In this document: positions 7,813 through 63,689 of the stretch, one piece after another
Numbering within the stretch: position 1 is the stretch's first letter
Layout of the letters: every line of letters begins with the position of its first letter
Origin: an uncultured Alphaproteobacteria bacterium
GTDB lineage: Bacteria; Pseudomonadota; Alphaproteobacteria; HIMB59; GCA-002718135
DNA: 64,000 bases
NCBI GenBank assembly: GCA_902602695.1
Contig: CACKRO010000002.1
Location: 2,170-66,169, forward strand
Direction of reading: 5' to 3'
Made by a program: the position numbers and the translations under genes
The notes under the pieces: generated by a model
What the model was told of the DNA's origin: nothing
Databases searched by the model: none
What the model saw: the letters and a program-made list of their open reading frames with translations, nothing else

Positions 7813-8846
7813 TGTTTAATGTTATTGATCAATATAATAGTTTTGTTGAAAATAATTTTATTAAAAAAAATAAAGATCAAATTGAATTCTTAAAACAAGC
7901 AGATAACGTATGGTCATCTTTTAGTAAAACTAAGTTATTTTTTAAGGATAAAATTTTTGAAGGAATTTATCTTTATGGTCAAGTTGGAACAGGAAAAACA
8001 TTTTTATTAAATTTATTTTATCAAAATACTAAGATTGGAAAAAAAATTCATTTTAATAACTTAATGAATGAAATCCATGAACAAGTTAAAAAATCAGAAA
8101 ATAAAGAACTTGCAATCGAAAACTATGTAAAGAATTTAAGTAGAGATTTTAAAATAATATTTGTTGATGAATTGCATATTTTTAATATTGTAGACGCATT
8201 AATAATAAAAAAAATATTTAATTATTTTTCTAAATATAAAATATTTATATTACTGTCGTCAAATTTTCATCCAGATAATTTATATAAAGATGGTTTGCAG
8301 AGAAATGATTTTCTGCCATTTATTGATTTAATCAAAAAAAATTTTTATCTCTATGATATTAGTATTAAAACTGATTTTCGTCGACAAACATTAAATCAAT
8401 CAAAGACATATTTCACACCTATAACAACTGACACAACAAATGAATTTGAAAAATTATTTAATCGCTTTGTTGATCCCTCCCATTTAACAACTATAAAAAT
8501 TAAATCTAAAAGTCGTGAACTAGAGTTTGATAAATGTACATCAAATCTAATGATGATAGATTTTGAAAATCTTTGTGAAGTAAATTTTGGTAATGAAGAT
8601 TATAAAAATATAGCAGATAAATTTAAGTTGGTATTTTTAAAAAATGTTCCTGAATTTGATAATCAGAAAAAAGATTCATGCAGAAGATTTATTGGATTAA
8701 TTGATATGTTATATGAAAATAATTGTTCAATTGTAATTTTAGCGTCAAAACCTATAAATTCATTAAATAATATAAATACTTTAGCAGAAGAATTTAAAAG
8801 AACTGCTAGCAGATTATATGAAATGACTATAGTTAAACCAGATTGA
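7812..8846 (+). CDS. zapE: AFG1/ZapE-family ATPase
   Basis: Walker A is GQVGTGKTFLLN and Walker B is IIFVDELHI. The length and an alphaproteobacterial position near sdh/mdh also fit. Confidence 0.75.
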   Translation: MFNVIDQYNSFVENNFIKKNKDQIEFLKQADNVWSSFSKTKLFFKDKIFEGIYLYGQVGTGKTFLLNLFYQNTKIGKKIHFNNLMNEIHEQVKKSENKELAIENYVKNLSRDFKIIFVDELHIFNIVDALIIKKIFNYFSKYKIFILLSSNFHPDNLYKDGLQRNDFLPFIDLIKKNFYLYDISIKTDFRRQTLNQSKTYFTPITTDTTNEFEKLFNRFVDPSHLTTIKIKSKSRELEFDKCTSNLMMIDFENLCEVNFGNEDYKNIADKFKLVFLKNVPEFDNQKKDSCRRFIGLIDMLYENNCSIVILASKPINSLNNINTLAEEFKRTASRLYEMTIVKPD

Positions 8847-56330: not shown

Positions 56331-56885
56331 ATGAGTATTGCAGAAAATCCAGCTTTGGTTCTTAATGCTGATTTTCGGCCGCTATCTTATTACCCACTTT
56401 CCTTATGTTCATGGCAAGACGCCATCAAAGCTGTTTTTCTTGAAAGAGTTTCAGTGATAGAAAATTATGAGCATGAAGTTCATTCTCCAAATCTTACTTT
56501 TAAGTTACCAAGCGTAATTGCCTTAAAGGATTATGTAACTCCTCAACGAAGACCTGCCTTTACCCGTTTTAATGTTTTTTTGAGAGATAACTTTACTTGC
56601 CAATACTGTACTAATCGTTTTCCAGCAAACGAATTAACATTTGATCATTTAGTTCCGAAATGTTTGCATGGAAAAACTACTTGGGAAAATGTTGTCTCAG
56701 CATGCACATCATGTAATTTAAAAAAGGGTAGAAAACTTATTCAGAATACAGATATGAAACTTTTTAAAAAACCTCTAAGACCATCTTCAATTCAACTACA
56801 AAATAATGGCAGGAATTTCCCACCTAATTTTTTGCATGAGACTTGGAGAGATTATTTATACTGGGATTCAGAACTAGAAAACTAG
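56331..56885 (+). CDS. stand-alone HNH endonuclease
   Basis: CQYC...FDHLVPK...GKTTWENVVSACTSCNLKKG is an HNH/zinc motif. Confidence 0.7.
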   Translation: MSIAENPALVLNADFRPLSYYPLSLCSWQDAIKAVFLERVSVIENYEHEVHSPNLTFKLPSVIALKDYVTPQRRPAFTRFNVFLRDNFTCQYCTNRFPANELTFDHLVPKCLHGKTTWENVVSACTSCNLKKGRKLIQNTDMKLFKKPLRPSSIQLQNNGRNFPPNFLHETWRDYLYWDSELEN

Positions 56886-58579: not shown

Positions 58580-59776
58580 ATGGAAACGACAGAAACCAAA
58601 GAATTAAAAACAGCATTTTTTGCAACTTTTTCTCAAGGATTATTTGCAACACTCATTTTTAGTACTTTTATGGTTAACACCCCAATTCTTTTTGAGTTAA
58701 TAGAAATGACAAAAACTGAATTTTCAATAGGCTTTGTATTTTTTGGAATTTTTAATGTAATTACTAATCAATTAACCACGCGTTTTTTATTACCAAAAAT
58801 TGGAAGTACAAATTGCTTAATAATAGCAAGACTAATGTATTCCTTTATTCCATTTTATATTTTTTATTTTTCAAACTATAATATTTTTATTTTAGTTTCT
58901 ATATTCTGGGGAGTTTCTATTGGAATACAAGCGCCAAATATTTTTACACAAGTTGCTATTATAGAAGAAAGAACCAAAAAAATTCTTAATCCAATTTTTA
59001 AATCTTCTTTTAATTTTGGTTTTTTAAGTGGTGCAGCAATATCAAGTATTTGTCTTGGTTTTGACATTGATCCTATTTACACAACTTTTTTCATTGGGTT
59101 ATTTGTATTTATTTCATCACTATCAATGTATTTTTTTGGTTTAGAAAAAAAATATGATGTAGTGAATAATAATCCAAGATTTGCAGTTCCAAACTTCAAC
59201 ATTATTTTATTTGCATCTATTAATATGTTTATTATTGCGTTTATGGGAATAATTGTTCAATGGTCACCTCTTTGGCTTGTTACCGATTTGTCAGCCCCAA
59301 TATATCTAGTTGGATCAATTGTAATTTTTTTTAATGCTGGTGAGATCATTGGCAATATTTTTGCTTCTAGATTAATTAAAAAATTTAATGAATTAATTGT
59401 AGGCCCTTGTTTTGCAATGGTTGGATCAATAATATTATTTTTGAGTATAATTACTCAAAATATTACTATTATATTTTTATCGATAACAATATTTGGATTT
59501 TTAATTTCAAATGTTATGCCTATCGTATTTAGGCAGGCTGTATTGCACTCAAATAATCCAATACCTATAACAATTTCTCATATTTCAAGCATAGCTTTTG
59601 TAGGGGCTATATTTGGACCAGCAGTTGTCGGGATTTCCGCAGAAACATTTGGCTTAACATTTAATATGTACGTTTTAGGAGCAATTATGTTTTTGATTTC
59701 TCTATTAATGTATTTAATTATGTTCAAAAGTAAAAAAAAAATAGATAATAAAATACAAACATCTCAAAATTTTTAA
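58580..59776 (+). CDS. MFS-like 12-TM transporter, paralog 1
   Basis: A polytopic 398-aa protein, clearly homologous to the next gene along its whole length. Confidence 0.55.
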   Translation: METTETKELKTAFFATFSQGLFATLIFSTFMVNTPILFELIEMTKTEFSIGFVFFGIFNVITNQLTTRFLLPKIGSTNCLIIARLMYSFIPFYIFYFSNYNIFILVSIFWGVSIGIQAPNIFTQVAIIEERTKKILNPIFKSSFNFGFLSGAAISSICLGFDIDPIYTTFFIGLFVFISSLSMYFFGLEKKYDVVNNNPRFAVPNFNIILFASINMFIIAFMGIIVQWSPLWLVTDLSAPIYLVGSIVIFFNAGEIIGNIFASRLIKKFNELIVGPCFAMVGSIILFLSIITQNITIIFLSITIFGFLISNVMPIVFRQAVLHSNNPIPITISHISSIAFVGAIFGPAVVGISAETFGLTFNMYVLGAIMFLISLLMYLIMFKSKKKIDNKIQTSQNF

Positions 59777-59816: not shown

Positions 59817-61007
59817 ATGTCTGAATATAAAGTATTAAAAAGATCTTTTTATATTGCTTACTCAGTAGGCTCATTAAACATTTTTCTATTAACTATTTAT
59901 ATGGTTCATGTCCCAATTTTACTAGATATACTAAAAATTACAAAAGTAGAATTCTCATTTGGATTAACATTATTTGGTTTATTTAGTATAATATCTAATC
60001 AAGCAACTACACTTTTTTTGACCCCAAAGATTGGAACAAAAAATTGTATTGTCATTTCAAGAACAATTATATCTTTTTTACCTTTCATAGTTTTTTTTTC
60101 AGAAAGTTATTCTGTTTTTTTAATTGTATCATCTATTTGGGGTTTAGCTATGGGTATACAGGTACCAAATGTATTGTTACAAGTTAGTATTATTGAAAAA
60201 GAAACTTCAGAAATTTTAAACCCTATATTTAAATCAGCTTTTTCCATAGGTGTAATATGTGGTTCAATAACTGCCAGTATTGCACTTGGGTATAATTTTA
60301 ATCCCATTAATATATTTATTTTTTTTGGTTTTATTTTTATTCTTTCAGCATTAACTATTTATTTTTTTGGATTACCAAGAAAATATGACATTGTGAGCAA
60401 AGGTTCAAAATTTACTCTTCCAAGTAAAGGTGTTTTTATATTTGGACTCATAAATATGCTTATTTTTGCTTCCATGGGAATAATTGCACAATGGTCATCA
60501 TTGTGGCTGCTTAATGATCTTAACGCAGCTATTTTTATGGCTGGCTCAATAGTACTTTTTTTTAACATTGGAGGAATAATTAGCAATTTTTTAGCATCAA
60601 ATCTTATCAATTTGTTTAATGAAAAAGTTGTAGGCCCTTACTTTTCCATAATAGGATCAATAATTCTGATAGTCAGTATTACAACAATGAACTTATATAT
60701 AATTCTATTAGCTATGATAATTTTTGGATTTTTTACATCAAATCTATTACCTATAGTAATTAGATTAGCTGTTAAAATCTCTAAAGAGCCTATGCCCAAG
60801 ACTATCTCTCATATAACTAGCATAGGTCAAGCAGGAGCTTTATTTGGTCCAGCAATTGTTGGTTTTGCTGCATCAATCTTTGGATTAACTTTTAATATGT
60901 ATGCACTAGGTTTTATTTTTTTAGGTATTTCGTTTTTATTATTAACAGCTATAAAAAATAATACAGTGGTAGGAGTAGAGGGAATCGAACCCACACCACC
61001 GAAGTGA
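59817..61007 (+). CDS. MFS-like 12-TM transporter, paralog 2 (3' end reads into the tRNA-Leu gene)
   Basis: It is collinear with paralog 1, for example PILFELIEMTKTEFS versus PILLDILKITKVEFS. Its last 41 nt overlap the complement of tRNA-Leu. Confidence 0.55.
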   Translation: MSEYKVLKRSFYIAYSVGSLNIFLLTIYMVHVPILLDILKITKVEFSFGLTLFGLFSIISNQATTLFLTPKIGTKNCIVISRTIISFLPFIVFFSESYSVFLIVSSIWGLAMGIQVPNVLLQVSIIEKETSEILNPIFKSAFSIGVICGSITASIALGYNFNPINIFIFFGFIFILSALTIYFFGLPRKYDIVSKGSKFTLPSKGVFIFGLINMLIFASMGIIAQWSSLWLLNDLNAAIFMAGSIVLFFNIGGIISNFLASNLINLFNEKVVGPYFSIIGSIILIVSITTMNLYIILLAMIIFGFFTSNLLPIVIRLAVKISKEPMPKTISHITSIGQAGALFGPAIVGFAASIFGLTFNMYALGFIFLGISFLLLTAIKNNTVVGVEGIEPTPPK

Positions 61008-61051
61008 CCGGATTTTGAATCCGGCGCGTCTACCAGTTCCGCCATACTCCC
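60967..61051 (-). tRNA. tRNA-Leu (anticodon CAA), class II with long variable arm
   Basis: An 85-nt hand fold. It has a GGGAGTA/TACTCCT acceptor stem and a CCGGA/TCCGG anticodon stem with loop TTCAAAA. The variable arm is CAC-UUCG-GUG, the T-loop is GGTTCGATTCC, and CCA is encoded. Confidence 0.9.
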
Positions 61052-61130
61052 ATATTATTTTTCCCTGTAATACTTGGTTTTCAAAGTTAAGTCTACCAAC
61101 ATGATAAGGAAATATTATTCGTAAAGTGTC
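61000..61130. repeat. direct repeat copy 1: tRNA-Leu 5' half plus ~80 nt of its upstream region
   Basis: It aligns with 63397-63539. The match is exact over the tRNA part and, by eye, about three-quarters identical over the upstream part, for example tttttccctgtaatacttggtttt versus tttttccaagtattacttggtttt. Confidence 0.8.
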
Positions 61131-61209
61131 TTAAAATATTTAATTCTTTATAAATTCACAAATCTACTTAAATTTTATAAAATAATTTTAAATTTAATAA
61201 TTTTATTTT

Positions 61210-62601
61210 ATGAACAAATTATTCACTGGAGACAATTTATATATACTTCATGGACTTAATTCAGAAAGTGTAGATTTAATTTATTTAGATCCACCTTTTA
61301 ATTCAAAAAGAAAATTTGACGCCCCTGTTGGGAGTATAGCTGCGGGTGCATCTTTTGAAGATATGTGGAATTGGAGTGATGTAGATTCATTATATTTGGA
61401 AGAAATAATAAACAACTATCCATTTTTAGTTCAATTTATCCAAACTATTGGAAGAATTAATGGAGACTCTATGAAGTCTTACATTACTTATATGACACAA
61501 AGAATAATAGAAATGAAAAGAATATTAAAGAATACAGGATCATTTTATTTGCATTGTGATTCTACTGCTTCTCACTACTTAAAAATAGTTTGTGATAGAA
61601 TCTTTAAAAAAAATAATTTTAGAAATGAAATTATTTGGAAGAGACTAAATGTTTCTGGCAAAGAGTCTCAATATAAAAAAAAGAAATACAGTTCTAACAC
61701 TGATATTATTTTATTTTATACTAAATCAGATGATTATTTTATCAATCCGTATAGAAAACTAAATGAAGATGAAATGAAAATTAAATTTCCATACGGTAAA
61801 TTTCCAAATAGATATAAATTAGGAACAAGACTTTTTAGGTCAACGACAGCTGGGCCAAGACCAAATTTATGTTATGAATGGAGAGGTTTTAAAAACAGGT
61901 CTGAAGCAGGTTGGGCACTAAGTAAGGAGAGACTTGAAGAGGAATATCAAAAAGGAAATATTGTAATTAAAAATGAAAAAAGTTTGGAAAGAAGATCATA
62001 TGAAAAAGACTATAAAGGTGAGCCAATCTCTAACATATGGGATGATTTAAATGAATGGACAAAAAATGAAAGAACTAAATTTCCCACACAAAAGCCTTTA
62101 AGCTTAATGAAAAGAATACTTTTAACAAGTTCTAAAGAGAATGATGTCGTATTAGATCCATTTTGTGGATGTGCCACAACATGTATTGCCGCTCAACAAT
62201 TAAATAGAAAATGGATAGGGATTGATATTAGTGAGGCCTCATCTAAAATTATGATTGATAGATTAAGTGATGATTCTGCATTATTTAAAGATTTTATTAA
62301 TATTAAATCTCCTCCTAAGCGCTCTGATATTAAAGAGGTCCCAGTTTCAAACAGCTTAAGACAAGAAATTTATAATAATCAAAAAGGTCAATGTAATGCT
62401 TGTGATTTACAAACAGATTTAAGGCATTTTGAACTAGATCATATCATACCACGTTCTAAGGGAGGTGGTGATTATTTTGAAAACTATCAGTTATTATGCT
62501 CAAGTTGTAATAGAATAAAAGGTGATAGACCAATGGCTTATCTTCTCCTAAAAATCCAGAAAATAAATAAACTCCATAAATACGAATTAAGTTTTAGTTG
62601 A
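61210..62601 (+). CDS. beta-class N6-adenine/N4-cytosine DNA methyltransferase fused to a C-terminal HNH nuclease domain
   Basis: Motif IV is DLIYLDPPFNS. It is followed by FPTQKPLSLMKRIL and motif I VLDPFCGCATTCIAAQ, which is the beta-class order. The C-terminal HNH is CNAC...FELDHIIPRSKGGGDYFENYQLLCSSCNRIKGD. Confidence 0.8.
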   Translation: MNKLFTGDNLYILHGLNSESVDLIYLDPPFNSKRKFDAPVGSIAAGASFEDMWNWSDVDSLYLEEIINNYPFLVQFIQTIGRINGDSMKSYITYMTQRIIEMKRILKNTGSFYLHCDSTASHYLKIVCDRIFKKNNFRNEIIWKRLNVSGKESQYKKKKYSSNTDIILFYTKSDDYFINPYRKLNEDEMKIKFPYGKFPNRYKLGTRLFRSTTAGPRPNLCYEWRGFKNRSEAGWALSKERLEEEYQKGNIVIKNEKSLERRSYEKDYKGEPISNIWDDLNEWTKNERTKFPTQKPLSLMKRILLTSSKENDVVLDPFCGCATTCIAAQQLNRKWIGIDISEASSKIMIDRLSDDSALFKDFINIKSPPKRSDIKEVPVSNSLRQEIYNNQKGQCNACDLQTDLRHFELDHIIPRSKGGGDYFENYQLLCSSCNRIKGDRPMAYLLLKIQKINKLHKYELSFS

Positions 62602-62715
62602 TTGCGATAAAATTTCTAATTTTTTTTTCGTATGTAGGTCATATTTCTTACTATCTAAAAGTGCAAAGCGTCGTATGAGCGTCGCAATTTTTTTTTAATT
62701 TGAGTAAAAAATTTT

Positions 62716-62799
62716 ATGATCATCATAATTATCCTGCTTCCAAACACGGAGATTATTAAGACTCTAATGAAAAATTATCGTATATGCAGACTGGGTTAG
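62716..62799 (+). CDS. candidate 27-codon Ile/Leu-rich micro-ORF inside repeat module 1
   Basis: It encodes MIIIIILLPNTEIIKTLMKNYRICRLG. All 5 substitutions relative to copy 2 within the shared 20 codons fall at third codon positions. No SD is present, and it conflicts with the promoter reading of the same bases. Confidence 0.25.
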   Translation: MIIIIILLPNTEIIKTLMKNYRICRLG

Positions 62800-62830
62800 T
62801 GGTAAGGCCTATCACTAACCCTTTGCTTTT
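62793..62830 (+). terminator. terminator-like hairpin plus T-tract (module copy 1)
   Basis: A perfect 9-bp stem GGGTTAGTG/CACTAACCC with an 11-nt loop, followed by TTTGCTTTT. Confidence 0.45.
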
Positions 62831-62897
62831 ACCTTTCCTTTAATTTTAAAATATCATTTTAAATTAACAAATTAGATTTTTTTACCTATAAGGGCAC

Positions 62898-63293
62898 ATG
62901 CGTTTGTTAAGCAAATTTTTGATTCTTTTTTTTTCAATACACGTGGCATTTACTGTGGTTGCTTATTTTTATGGCTTTTCATTTACCTTCCCTTTTATCA
63001 TGACAGAAGGCACTTATGTGCCTGAACATCGTTTACAAAGTTTACGTTTATCAACTTTTACCACTTTTGTTTATTTTGGTTTTCGATATTTATTCTTTGG
63101 TTCAGAAAAGTTGCATCCAATACAATTCTTAGGTGTTTCTTTATTTAACTTAGGTGTTCTAGGTGGTCTATGCCTTTATGTTAATGATATTAAAGACTCT
63201 TCAGAATATTTTTTAGTACCTTTTTTTATATTTTCATCAATAATTTTATATAACGCTGCCAATCCGAAAATTAGAAATTATTTTAAAACATAA
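62898..63293 (+). CDS. hypothetical 131-aa polytopic membrane protein (about 4 TM)
   Basis: An ORF with four hydrophobic segments. I recognise no family. Confidence 0.45.
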   Translation: MRLLSKFLILFFSIHVAFTVVAYFYGFSFTFPFIMTEGTYVPEHRLQSLRLSTFTTFVYFGFRYLFFGSEKLHPIQFLGVSLFNLGVLGGLCLYVNDIKDSSEYFLVPFFIFSSIILYNAANPKIRNYFKT

Positions 63294-63396
63294 CATTAGA
63301 TTATTTATACAGTTAAAATATTTTAATCAAAAAACGTATGAGCGTTAAATATTAAAAGATAACTATAATCTTATTGAATTAGTTTAGTTTTTTAAA

Positions 63397-63448
63397 CGAA
63401 GTGACCGGATTTTGAATCCGGCGCGTCTACCAGTTCCGCCATACTTCC
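63397..63448 (-). pseudogene. truncated tRNA-Leu(CAA) 5' fragment (positions 1-52, ending in the variable-arm UUCG loop)
   Basis: It matches 51 of 52 nt of 61000-61051. It lacks the 3' half of the variable arm, the T arm and the 3' acceptor strand. Confidence 0.8.
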
Positions 63449-63519
63449 TTTATATTTTTCCAAGTATTACTTGGTTTTTAAGTTTAAGTCTATGAAGTTG
63501 TTTGGAGGAATTGAATTCG

Positions 63520-63689
63520 AAAAGTTTCGTAAGAGTGTCGCTATTTTTTTGGTTAATTTGAGTAAAAAATTTTATGATAATCATAATTATCCTGCTGCCA
63601 AACACTGAGATTATTAAGACTCTGATAAAAAATTAGCGTATAGGCCGACTGGGTTAGTGGTAAGGCCTATCACTAGCCCTTTTTATTTT
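63520..63689 (+). repeat. repeat module copy 2
   Basis: A homolog of 62657-62830. Its micro-ORF is 63574-63636 (MIIIIILLPNTEIIKTLIKN, 20 codons). Confidence 0.8.
63651..63689 (+). terminator. terminator-like hairpin plus T-tract (module copy 2)
   Basis: The stem is GGGTTAGTG/CACTAGCCC. The single change gives a U-G wobble on the plus-strand RNA only. It is followed by TTTTTATTTT. Confidence 0.45.

What the first reader, a model, noticed from the sequence alone, without database searches (positions are those of the whole stretch)
61210..62601. Single-polypeptide DNA methyltransferase-HNH nuclease fusion as the main cargo of the tRNA-Leu island
The N-terminal ~370 aa carry beta-class amino-methyltransferase motifs in the order IV (DPPF) then I (VLDPFCGCATT). 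The DPPF motif favours N6-adenine specificity. The last ~80 aa are a canonical HNH/zinc nuclease (CNAC...DHIIPRSKGG...N...CSSCN). No separate restriction or specificity gene is adjacent. Three readings are possible. It may be a self-contained restriction-modification or defense enzyme. The HNH domain may act as a homing or nicking nuclease that mobilises the cassette, which would explain the absence of an integrase. Or it may be a phage-derived anti-restriction methylase. Any of these is notable in a minimal genome.
Basis: partly seen in the sequence, partly recalled or inferred. Interest (0 to 1): 0.65.

Follow-up and report, generated by a model that had tools for sequence, protein, structure and literature searches.

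The report
Mobile DNA methylase–HNH nuclease fusion gene
A strain-variable 1.5-kb single-gene cassette beside tRNA-Leu in a Pelagibacteraceae genome encodes one protein that joins a DNA adenine-type methylase to an HNH nuclease; it belongs to a large, widespread family I found described nowhere and is most likely a one-protein restriction-modification enzyme.

Summary
ORF 61210-62601 (+, 463 aa) joins a beta-class DNA methyltransferase (PF01555, E 2.7e-46; DPPF then DPFCGCATT) to a Cys4 HNH nuclease (PF01844, E 1e-11).

It is not a one-off. At least 591 loci in species-representative genomes of many phyla encode the same fusion. In 208 members both catalytic centres are almost invariant. The internal target-recognition domain (TRD) is hypervariable: 68 clusters, against 1-3 for the other modules.

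The methylase part folds like Type III Mod subunits. No Res, specificity subunit or other partner gene is conserved nearby.

The gene is mobile. A 96%-identical strain (L091) has a precise empty site. Another strain carries different cargo at the same tRNA. The HIMB114-like homolog sits at tRNA-Gly between 55-nt direct repeats. Elsewhere the gene is an IS1595 passenger or forms tandem arrays that differ only in the TRD. Phages and plasmids carry mainly the methylase without the HNH.

Best reading (about 0.5): a compact single-chain restriction-modification enzyme carried on a selfish cassette. It resembles Type IIG/IIC enzymes in logic but is built from different parts. No activity was tested, REBASE was not available, and no paper I could search describes the family.

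The parts
60967..61051 (-). tRNA-Leu(CAA), intact; it marks the border of a hypervariable locus
   Evidence: ARAGORN; Rfam tRNA 56.8 bits
61000..61095 (.). Direct repeat D2a: the 5' 52 nt of tRNA-Leu plus 44 nt upstream
   Evidence: the repeat finder D2, 96 nt, 90% identical to 63397-63492
61123..61130 (+). Left junction motif AAAGTGTC
   Evidence: the empty allele L091 has a single AAAGCGTC here
61131..62664 (+). The methylase-HNH cassette (about 1.53 kb): promoter region, one ORF and a 3' tail. The boundaries are uncertain by about 20 nt because the junction motif is repeated.
   Evidence: Absent from L091, which joins window 61093 to 62678 with about 32 nt between
61155..61183 (+). Promoter-like site TTCACA-17-TAAAAT ahead of the ORF (consensus match only)
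61210..62601 (+). ORF encoding the 463-aa methyltransferase-HNH fusion protein
61270..62247 (+). Beta-class DNA methyltransferase domain (aa 21-346), with a Type III Mod-like fold
   Evidence: Pfam PF01555; Foldseek top hits are Mod subunits 6k0w, 4zcf and 7dsu
61288..61299 (+). Catalytic motif IV, DPPF (aa 27-30)
   Evidence: Present in 206 of 208 family members; the 2 exceptions are truncated ORFs
61657..62064 (+). Internal target-recognition domain (about aa 150-285), the hypervariable part of the family
   Evidence: Median 26% identity to the window protein against about 60% for the cores; 68 clusters
62149..62181 (+). SAM-binding motif I, VLDPFCGCATT (aa 314-324)
   Evidence: F318 and G320 present in 208 of 208
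62392..62529 (+). HNH beta-beta-alpha-metal nuclease domain with a Cys4 zinc site (aa 395-440): C395, C398, D410, H411, N425, C430, C433, N434
   Evidence: Pfam PF01844; H411 in 206/208 and N425 in 207/208
62665..62682 (+). Right junction: AAAGCGTC followed by CGTATGAGCGT, a tandem copy of the junction motif
62688..62824 (+). Direct repeat D1a with a terminator-like hairpin at 62793-62821
   Evidence: 92% identical to 63546-63682; hairpin
62898..63293 (+). ORF131, a small hydrophobic protein with no family match, lying between the two repeat sets. It is part of the island, not of the cassette.
63397..63492 (.). Direct repeat D2b: a partial tRNA-Leu (5' 52 nt) plus upstream region
   Evidence: weak Rfam tRNA hit at 63393-63448
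63520..63538 (+). Internal 'empty site': AAAGTTTC GTAAGAGTGTC is continuous here
63546..63682 (+). Direct repeat D1b with a hairpin at 63651-63679

Best explanation
The gene most likely encodes a compact single-polypeptide restriction-modification enzyme carried on a small mobile, selfish cassette. Inferred mechanism: the Mod-like beta-class methyltransferase, probably as a dimer like Type III Mod, reads a short DNA site through its internal TRD and methylates it. The DPPF motif points to N6-adenine. The C-terminal HNH domain has no DNA-reading module of its own. It would cut DNA at or near sites that the same TRD finds unmethylated. Resident DNA would be protected by prior methylation, while incoming phage or plasmid DNA, or a cell that loses the gene, would be cut. 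Each HNH probably nicks one strand, so a double-strand break would need two subunits or two sites. Shown here: the domain architecture, conservation of both active sites, TRD hypervariability, absence of any partner gene, and strain-level presence or absence and mobility. Not shown, only inferred: methylation, cleavage, their coupling, the recognition site and the oligomeric state.
For: Both domains are significant and intact. In 208 non-identical family members DPPF is present in 206, F318/G320 in 208, the HNH His in 206 and the Asn in 207, so both activities are under purifying selection. The TRD splits into 68 clusters at 40% identity, against 1-3 clusters for the MTase N-core, MTase C-core and HNH. 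In tandem arrays (L058, L005) the copies are 96-100% identical except in the TRD, where they are 11-31% identical. That pattern is typical of specificity modules of restriction systems, and Furuta et al. 2010 describe it for Type IIG enzymes. The predicted structure (pLDDT 81, pTM 0.82) is closest to Type III Mod subunits, namely H. pylori Mod 6k0w, EcoP15I Mod 4zcf and Mbo45V Mod 7dsu. The gene is solitary: clustering the neighbours of 81 loci finds no conserved partner, and Pfam-annotated neighbourhoods in the HIMB114-like, Entomospira and two other genomes are housekeeping genes. Its patchy, mobile distribution is typical of restriction-modification genes. The evidence is an empty site in L091, 55-nt and about 100-nt target duplications with no mobility gene, IS1595 passenger status, and at least 591 loci across phyla. 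Insertion of restriction-modification genes with long target duplication and no mobility gene is a described phenomenon (PMC2853133).
Against: No activity was measured. How a single chain would avoid cutting its own host at establishment is unknown. Nearly half of the members (96 of 208) share the window's TRD type across phyla, which is more conservative than a pure arms race predicts. The nearest HNH relatives by sequence are single-strand cutters: Cas9, IscB and the group II intron En domain. The enzyme might therefore only nick. PADLOC and NCBIfam have no model for the fusion. REBASE could not be consulted, so a curated assignment may exist. TRD diversity and mobility would also fit a selfish element that gives no defence benefit.
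Confidence: 0.5

Rival explanations
1. Self-mobilising cassette. The HNH nuclease mainly serves the gene's own spread: it breaks DNA at target sites, here next to tRNA genes, and repair copies or captures the cassette. The methylase protects filled chromosomes.
For: There is a precise filled/empty polymorphism at one site. In two Pelagibacterales-type lineages the gene sits at a tRNA gene between long direct repeats with no integrase: D2 of 96-108 nt at tRNA-Leu, and 55 nt at tRNA-Gly. Both right junctions share GAGYG(YG)TCGCAA, and the motif is repeated at the junctions.
Against: Insertion sites differ between genomes. The junction motif is found only in the window and L001, which are 2 of 81 downstream flanks. 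Long flanking repeats are otherwise limited to tandem arrays. Sixteen of 81 loci have an IS1595 transposase alongside that can account for mobility. The protein has no long-target DNA-binding module, which homing enzymes need. TRD hypervariability is hard to reconcile with a fixed homing site.
Confidence: 0.13
2. Host-serving orphan methylase with a nickase. The methylation has an epigenetic, replication or repair role, and the HNH nicks unmethylated or hemimethylated strands for a cellular process, like Dam plus MutH in one chain.
For: The gene sits alone among housekeeping genes in several genomes. One TRD type is conserved across phyla (96 of 208). The HNH clade is related to single-strand cutters. 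Cassette GC3 is 0.18, against 0.146-0.184 for eleven host genes.
Against: The gene is strain-variable even within 96%-identical genomes and patchy across taxa. It is a transposon passenger, and it forms tandem arrays with different TRDs. None of this fits a core housekeeping role.
Confidence: 0.12
3. Type III-like system whose Res partner is encoded elsewhere or was lost. The HNH would be an accessory domain, and restriction would need a separate helicase-nuclease.
For: Mod subunits are the best structural matches. PADLOC Type III MTase models match.
Against: No res or helicase gene is adjacent in the window or in about 85 other loci. Known Type III mod and res genes are adjacent (established knowledge). 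The protein is about 460 aa, against about 620-650 for Mod, and it carries its own nuclease.
Confidence: 0.05
4. Phage-derived anti-restriction methylase that protects a mobile element's DNA. The HNH would be a phage-type accessory nuclease.
For: The closest HNH-less methylases (about 40% identity over aa 1-352) are in actinophages, rhizobial plasmids and many viral contigs. Two viral contigs carry the fusion (L094, L095).
Against: Only 2 of the best 80 viral-contig matches, and none of the isolated phage or plasmid records listed, match through the HNH domain. No BFVD protein matches both domains. In L095 the gene arrived with an IS1595 transposase. There are no phage genes near the window copy.
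Confidence: 0.04

Closest known systems
Type IIG / IIC single-chain restriction-modification enzymes (MmeI, BpuSI, Eco57I, TstI families)
   Same: One polypeptide carries the nuclease, the methyltransferase and a single TRD. They are often solitary genes and show allelic TRD diversity and mobility (PMC2853133; PMC4081073).
   Different: Those enzymes have an N-terminal PD-(D/E)XK nuclease, a gamma-class methyltransferase and a C-terminal TRD, in about 900-1000 aa (established knowledge). Here there is a beta-class Mod-like methyltransferase with an internal TRD and a C-terminal HNH, in 463 aa. There is no sequence relationship beyond the methyltransferase fold.
Type III Mod subunits (EcoP15I Mod, H. 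pylori Mod, Mbo45V Mod)
   Same: They are the best structural matches. They share the beta-class motif order, a DPPY/F motif and an internal variable TRD. Sequence matches EcoP15I Mod over aa 4-196.
   Different: There is no Res partner anywhere nearby. The protein has an extra C-terminal HNH and is about 150-180 aa shorter.
HNH Type IIS systems with beta-class methylases (MboII/HpyAII with M.MboIIA)
   Same: An HNH nuclease is paired with a beta-class N6-adenine methylase. M.MboIIA (1g60) matches by sequence and by structure.
   Different: Those systems have two separate proteins, and the nuclease has its own DNA-recognition domain. Here the parts are fused and no second recognition domain is detected.
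Orphan beta-class methylases of phages and plasmids (for example Streptomyces phage Hippo gp48, Rhizobium plasmid methylases)
   Same: About 37-41% identity over aa 1-352, including the TRD region.
   Different: They lack the linker and the HNH domain.
Free-standing HNH homing endonucleases (I-HmuI, T4 Mob proteins)
   Same: An HNH nuclease is encoded by a gene that shows presence/absence polymorphism.
   Different: Homing enzymes carry extended DNA-binding modules and target one long site (established knowledge). Here the only reader is a methylase TRD, and insertion sites differ.

Membership tests
Beta-class N6-adenine/N4-cytosine DNA methyltransferases (Pfam PF01555) | Score above the Pfam gathering threshold | tested here: met
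   158.7 bits against a cut-off of 26.7
Beta-class N6-adenine/N4-cytosine DNA methyltransferases (Pfam PF01555) | Circular permutation with catalytic motif IV (D/S-P-P-Y/F) N-terminal to SAM motif I, and the TRD between them | tested here: met
   DPPF at aa 27-30, DPFCGCATT at aa 316-324, variable region at aa 150-285
Beta-class N6-adenine/N4-cytosine DNA methyltransferases (Pfam PF01555) | N6-adenine rather than N4-cytosine specificity | not testable with these tools
   DPPF (Asp first) favours N6-adenine by established motif knowledge, but only methylome data can show it
HNH / beta-beta-alpha-metal nucleases (Pfam PF01844) | Score above the gathering threshold, with the catalytic His, metal-binding Asn and Asp present | tested here: met
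   45.2 bits against 21.4; D410-H411, N425 and N434 are invariant in A1; H in 206/208
HNH / beta-beta-alpha-metal nucleases (Pfam PF01844) | Cys4 zinc site (CxxC...CxxC) | tested here: met
   C395, C398, C430 and C433 are present in about 200 of 208; an eight-member subgroup lacks them
HNH / beta-beta-alpha-metal nucleases (Pfam PF01844) | Metal-dependent DNA cleavage | not testable with these tools
   Needs biochemistry
Type IIG/IIC combined restriction-modification enzymes | Nuclease and methyltransferase domains in one polypeptide with one TRD | tested here: met
Type IIG/IIC combined restriction-modification enzymes | Site-dependent cleavage blocked by the enzyme's own methylation (and SAM effects for IIG) | not testable with these tools
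MmeI-type (Type IIL) family | N-terminal PD-(D/E)XK nuclease plus gamma-class methyltransferase plus C-terminal TRD | tested here: not met
   The nuclease is a C-terminal HNH and the methyltransferase is beta-class. The protein is an analogue of this family, not a member.
Type III restriction-modification system | Mod-like methyltransferase | tested here: met
   Foldseek top hits are Mod subunits; sequence match to EcoP15I Mod
Type III restriction-modification system | Adjacent res gene (SF2 helicase plus nuclease) | tested here: not met
   None in the window, in 81 clustered neighbourhoods or in Pfam-annotated loci
Integrase-mediated tRNA-targeting genomic island | Direct repeats derived from the tRNA gene at both ends | tested here: met
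   D2a/D2b in the window; 55-nt repeat at tRNA-Gly in L001
Integrase-mediated tRNA-targeting genomic island | An integrase gene within the element | tested here: not met
   Between the repeats there are only the fusion gene and ORF131 in the window, and only the fusion gene in L001
Restriction-modification gene 'insertion with long target duplication' (Nobusato 2000; Furuta 2010) | Only restriction-modification gene(s) between direct repeats longer than 30 bp, with no mobility gene | tested here: met
   L001: 55-nt repeats 1656 nt apart enclosing one gene. L085-L090: about 108-nt repeats about 1766 nt apart.
Restriction-modification gene 'insertion with long target duplication' (Nobusato 2000; Furuta 2010) | A related genome has the unduplicated empty site | tested here: inconclusive
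   L091 is an empty site for the cassette itself, but it still carries the D2-D1 arrangement. No empty allele could be fetched for L001.
Homing endonuclease gene | The same long target site is occupied in different genomes, and the protein has an extended DNA-binding module | tested here: not met
   The loci differ. The junction motif recurs only in the window and L001. No extra DNA-binding domain was found.

The most novel reading that the evidence does not exclude
The HNH domain is both the restriction nuclease and the engine of the cassette's own insertion. It would cut near its recognition site next to tRNA genes, and that break would trigger repair that captures the 1.5-kb gene with a long target duplication. 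This would give an enzymatic basis for the integrase-free 'insertion with long target duplication' long seen for restriction-modification genes. The family would then be a new kind of minimal one-gene mobile element, made of methylase, nuclease and nothing else.
Probability: 0.1. Interest if true: 0.8.

Novelty: new variant of a known kind. Interest (0 to 1): 0.55.

Why it matters
If the family works as inferred, it is a second, independently built solution to one-protein restriction-modification. It is half the size of the MmeI/Type IIG enzymes and is made from a Type III Mod-like methylase and an HNH nuclease. Nature has already swapped its specificity module dozens of times on an otherwise constant scaffold, so it would be attractive for specificity engineering and for predicting recognition sites from sequence. 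The family is abundant in poorly studied marine lineages: Pelagibacterales, SAR86, and the Poribacteria and Chloroflexota MAGs that dominate the hit list, whose isolate names look sponge-derived. Defence repertoires in these groups are thought to be sparse or are poorly annotated. In streamlined Pelagibacteraceae genomes a 1.5-kb single gene is about the cheapest possible defence or addiction module. Its filled and empty alleles offer a natural system for studying gain and loss of restriction-modification genes without integrases.

Tried and rejected
1. **Conserved partner gene.** All-against-all clustering of ORFs within 6 kb of the gene in 81 loci found only an IS1595 transposase (16 loci). 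The other clusters were generic families such as SDR, ABC ATPase and Uma2. Pfam-annotated neighbourhoods agreed.

2. **General tRNA association.** Only L001, L027 and L030 of 60 scanned loci have a tRNA within about 200 nt, which is close to chance. The tRNA link is specific to the Pelagibacterales-type copies.

3. **General flanking direct repeats.** Only 7 of 85 genes exceed the 99th percentile of controls, and all 7 come from the tandem arrays. L001, the next highest, falls below that cut-off.

4. **Shared insertion motif.** GAGYG(YG)TCGC occurs at the downstream flank only in the window and L001. An apparently strong upstream motif, CCCAACTTCGC (P about 1e-17), proved to be conserved N-terminal coding sequence (PNFADKTIWTGDN) outside my alignment-based gene start. 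It is an artefact.

5. **The 11-mer CGTAWGAGYGT.** It occurs three times in the window, all within 62672-63538. Two of the three belong to repeat D1, and 3 of 100 shuffles reach three matches, so this is weak evidence on its own.

6. **Exact-protein look-ups.** Look-ups of the window protein and two neighbours found nothing on record.

7. **Rfam.** It found nothing in the island beyond the tRNA and its fragment.

8. **Literature.** Searches for the fusion under several names, and in Type II, Type IIG and SAR11 papers, found no description.

9. **Foreign base composition.** Cassette GC is 0.29 and GC3 is 0.18, indistinguishable from host genes.
Full report
**1.

ORF 61210-62601 (+) encodes 463 aa. 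Pfam finds a DNA methylase domain: PF01555, aa 21-346, E 2.7e-46, 158.7 bits against a cut-off of 26.7. It also finds an HNH nuclease domain: PF01844, aa 395-440, E 1.1e-11, 45.2 bits against 21.4.

The catalytic motif DPPF (aa 27-30) comes before the SAM motif VLDPFCGCATT (aa 314-324). That is the beta-class permutation, and by established motif knowledge an Asp-first motif IV favours N6-adenine. The C-terminus reads CNAC...DHIIPRSKGG...N...CSSCN, a Cys4 beta-beta-alpha-metal site.

NCBIfam has no model that reaches its cut-off. The best is PRK11524 at 111.6 bits against 292. The HNH part matches the HNH regions of the Cas9d and IscB models. PADLOC matches only generic Type II and Type III methylase models.

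The host is a Pelagibacteraceae genome of about 30.6% GC.

**2. It is a member of a large family, not a singular fusion**

All 120 best database hits (48-99% identity, mostly 445-490 aa) carry both Pfam domains. They come from many bacterial phyla and from a Nitrosopumilus MAG, and marine MAGs dominate. The lineages include Poribacteria, Dehalococcoidia, SAR86 and Flammeovirgaceae. Many of the isolate names look sponge-derived, which I did not verify.

An exhaustive HMMER search with only the linker plus HNH (aa 355-463) gave 485 representative clusters at E <= 1e-10. Of the top 149, at least 80 have the methylase core upstream. Most of the rest are short fragments.

Public names are generic: 'DNA methyltransferase', 'HNH endonuclease' or 'hypothetical'. 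The cultured hosts include Entomospira entomophila and E. culicis. I found no paper in the searchable library that describes the fusion. REBASE was not available.

**3. Anatomy of the family**

I assembled 208 non-identical members.

| Feature | Members retaining it |
|---|---|
| DPPF (motif IV) | 206 of 208; the two exceptions are truncated ORFs |
| F318 / G320 (motif I) | 208 of 208 |
| HNH His (H411) | 206 of 208 |
| HNH Asn (N425) | 207 of 208 |
| Cys4 site | about 200 of 208 |

Identity to the window protein differs sharply by segment.

| Segment | Median identity to the window protein |
|---|---|
| Methylase N-core (aa 1-145) | 0.59 |
| TRD (aa 165-285) | 0.26 |
| Methylase C-core (aa 290-352) | 0.60 |
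| HNH (aa 393-445) | 0.60 |

At 40% single linkage the TRD falls into 68 clusters, against 1-3 for the other segments. The window's TRD type is the commonest, with 96 members.

The AlphaFold model is confident (pLDDT 81.3, pTM 0.82). Its best structural matches are Type III Mod subunits: H. pylori Mod 6k0w, EcoP15I Mod 4zcf (TM 0.53) and Mbo45V Mod 7dsu. Small beta-class methylases follow. By sequence, the nearest solved HNH domains are those of Cas9 and a group II intron maturase.

**4. It works alone**

Clustering all ORFs within 6 kb in 81 loci shows no conserved partner. In HIMB114-like MAGs (67% identity) the gene lies between an alpha/beta hydrolase gene and a Lon-substrate-binding/Trm112/Rho block. 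In Entomospira, in an unnamed 1.39-Mb contig and in a gammaproteobacterial MAG the neighbours are again unrelated, and those with a Pfam match are mostly housekeeping genes. No Res-type helicase, specificity subunit or integrase is seen.

**5. It is mobile, by several routes**

(a) *The window locus.* The layout is: tRNA-Leu with repeat D2a (61000-61095), then the cassette, then repeat D1a (62688-62824), then ORF131, then D2b (63397-63492, a partial tRNA), then D1b (63546-63682).
- A metagenomic contig from a 96%-identical strain (L091) runs from the MFS gene through tRNA-Leu and D2, and after about 32 nt enters D1a and the ORF131 upstream region. It lacks window 61131-62677.
- The empty site reads GAATTCGAAAAGCGTCGCAATT. 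The filled site has ATTCGTAAAGTGTC on the left and AAAGCGTCGTATGAGCGTCGCAATT on the right, so the cassette is bracketed by copies of AAAGYGTC.
- Six independent contigs carry the 99%-identical protein (L085-L090). In the four I compared with the window (L085, L086, L087, L090), the cassette is followed by another partial tRNA-Leu/D2 copy, with a unit length of about 1766 bp. All ten contigs on record that carry this protein are shorter than 2 kb.
- A third strain (L093) has sulfotransferase, class-I methyltransferase and carbamoyltransferase genes after the same tRNA. tRNA-Leu therefore borders a hypervariable locus.

(b) *The HIMB114-like homolog (L001).* It sits at tRNA-Gly(GCC) between 55-nt direct repeats that are 98% identical and 1656 nt apart. 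The repeats include about 50 nt of the tRNA's 3' part. A tighter 20-nt repeat also flanks the gene, and the right junction (CTGAGTGTGTCGCAA) resembles the window's.

(c) *IS1595 association.* In 16 of 81 loci an IS1595-family transposase is immediately adjacent. In L064 55-nt inverted repeats enclose both genes. In L095 the pair has landed in a phage-like contig.

(d) *Tandem arrays.* L058 has at least four intact copies, L005 has four units and L009 has three. Within L058 and L005 the copies are 96-100% identical outside the TRD (87-98% in L009) and 11-31% identical within it.

Cassette GC3 is 0.18 and matches host genes.

**6. It is not typically a phage or plasmid gene**

Isolated phages and plasmids carry relatives of the methylase part only (aa 1-352, at most about 41% identity). 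In IMG/VR, only 2 of the 80 best matches reach the HNH. No BFVD structure matches both domains.

**7. Interpretation**

Six observations point the same way:
- both active sites are retained;
- the nuclease has no DNA reader of its own;
- the TRD is hypervariable on a constant scaffold;
- tandem arrays carry multiple specificities;
- the gene has no partner;
- its distribution is patchy and mobile.

Together they fit a single-chain restriction-modification enzyme best (confidence about 0.5). It resembles Type IIG/IIC enzymes in logic. It fails the membership test for the MmeI-type family because both the nuclease fold and the methylase class differ. It also fails the test for a Type III system because there is no Res.

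The insertions with long target duplications and no mobility gene match a phenomenon already described for restriction-modification genes (PMC2853133). Methylation, cleavage, their coupling, dimerisation and the recognition sequence are all inferred.

The rival readings are listed below.

| Rival reading | Confidence | Main point |
|---|---|---|
| Self-mobilising nuclease | 0.13 | Supported only by the two tRNA-linked loci and their shared junction motif |
| Host-serving methylase-nickase | 0.12 | Strain variability counts against it |
| Type III remnant needing a Res | 0.05 | No res gene found anywhere nearby |
| Phage anti-restriction methylase | 0.04 | Fusion nearly absent from phages and plasmids |

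**8. Novelty and interest**

The parts are well known. As far as I could check, the fusion as a family, its Mod-like scaffold, its TRD-swapping arrays and its IS1595 and tRNA-linked mobility are undescribed. I rate it a new variant of a known kind, with the caveat that REBASE curators may already list such proteins.

Interest is moderate to good (0.55). A specialist would not be astonished by a methylase-nuclease fusion. But a widespread 460-aa candidate restriction-modification enzyme with naturally modular specificity is directly testable and potentially useful.

Noticed in passing
window 56331-56885 (+): A second, free-standing HNH protein of 184 aa (PF01844/PF14279; phrog_16726, E 1e-36). 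It belongs to a 918-member 90%-identity cluster named 'HNH endonuclease [Pelagibacteraceae]' or 'McrA', so it looks widely conserved in the lineage rather than island-borne. Its function is unknown.
   Followed up: partly
window 58580-59776 and 59817-61007 (+): Two tandem MFS transporter paralogs, about 67-70% identical at the DNA level. The reading frame of the second runs 41 nt into the tRNA-Leu gene on the opposite strand (60967-61007).
   Followed up: no
window 61000-61131 + 62669-62824 versus 63397-63682: A nested duplication of about 286 nt (tRNA 5' half, its upstream region and a terminator-like hairpin element) brackets ORF131. The cassette interrupts only the first copy. This implies at least two successive insertion or duplication events at this tRNA.
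   Followed up: partly
window 62793-62821 and 63651-63679 (+): Identical 12-bp-stem hairpins, GGGTTAGTGGTAAGGCCTATCACTA(A/G)CCC followed by a T-run, occur in both D1 copies. They look like terminators, match no Rfam family and occur nowhere else in the window.
   Followed up: partly
window 63335-63345: A third exact copy of the junction 11-mer CGTATGAGCGT lies just after ORF131 and 52 nt before the partial tRNA. It may mark another module boundary in the island.
   Followed up: no
L093:484-3741: At the same tRNA-Leu site another strain carries sulfotransferase (PF03567), class-I methyltransferase and carbamoyltransferase (PF02543/PF16861) genes. This is surface-modification-type cargo typical of SAR11 hypervariable regions.
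   Followed up: yes
L058:6494-13591; L005:5478-11398; L009:27-3738: Tandem arrays of 3 to 5 methylase-HNH genes. In L058 and L005 the N-terminal, C-terminal and HNH parts are 96-100% identical, while the TRDs share only 11-31%. This points to concerted evolution with TRD cassette exchange. One L005 unit was not called as a full ORF at first.
   Followed up: partly
L064:9248-12271; L095:8312-10718: The fusion gene and an IS1595-family transposase (PF12762 + PF12760) lie side by side in 16 of 81 loci. In L064 both lie between 55-nt imperfect inverted repeats, so the gene is a transposon passenger. In L095 the pair sits in a phage-like contig next to a tape-measure-like gene.
   Followed up: partly
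L001:6327-6381 and 7983-8037: In the HIMB114-like homolog, a 55-nt direct repeat (98% identical) containing about 50 nt of the 3' part of tRNA-Gly(GCC) brackets the single gene. No integrase lies between the repeats.
   Followed up: yes
L046, L032, L058 (C-terminal domains): An eight-member subgroup has an HNH variant that keeps the catalytic His and Asn but lacks the four zinc cysteines and has Lys in place of Asp410.
   Followed up: no
P0137, P0208, P0125, P0151, P0152: Some database proteins related to this HNH carry 2 to 4 tandem HNH domains and no methylase. The architecture is unexplained.
   Followed up: no
P0035: A 704-aa protein from a freshwater mussel assembly (Potamilus streckersoni) combines an inositol-monophosphatase domain with the full methylase-HNH. 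It is probably bacterial contamination or a merged gene model.
   Followed up: no
L176:9162-10124: In a gammaproteobacterial MAG a second, HNH-less N6_N4 methylase and several unannotated genes lie just downstream of the fusion gene. This may be a small defence cluster.
   Followed up: no
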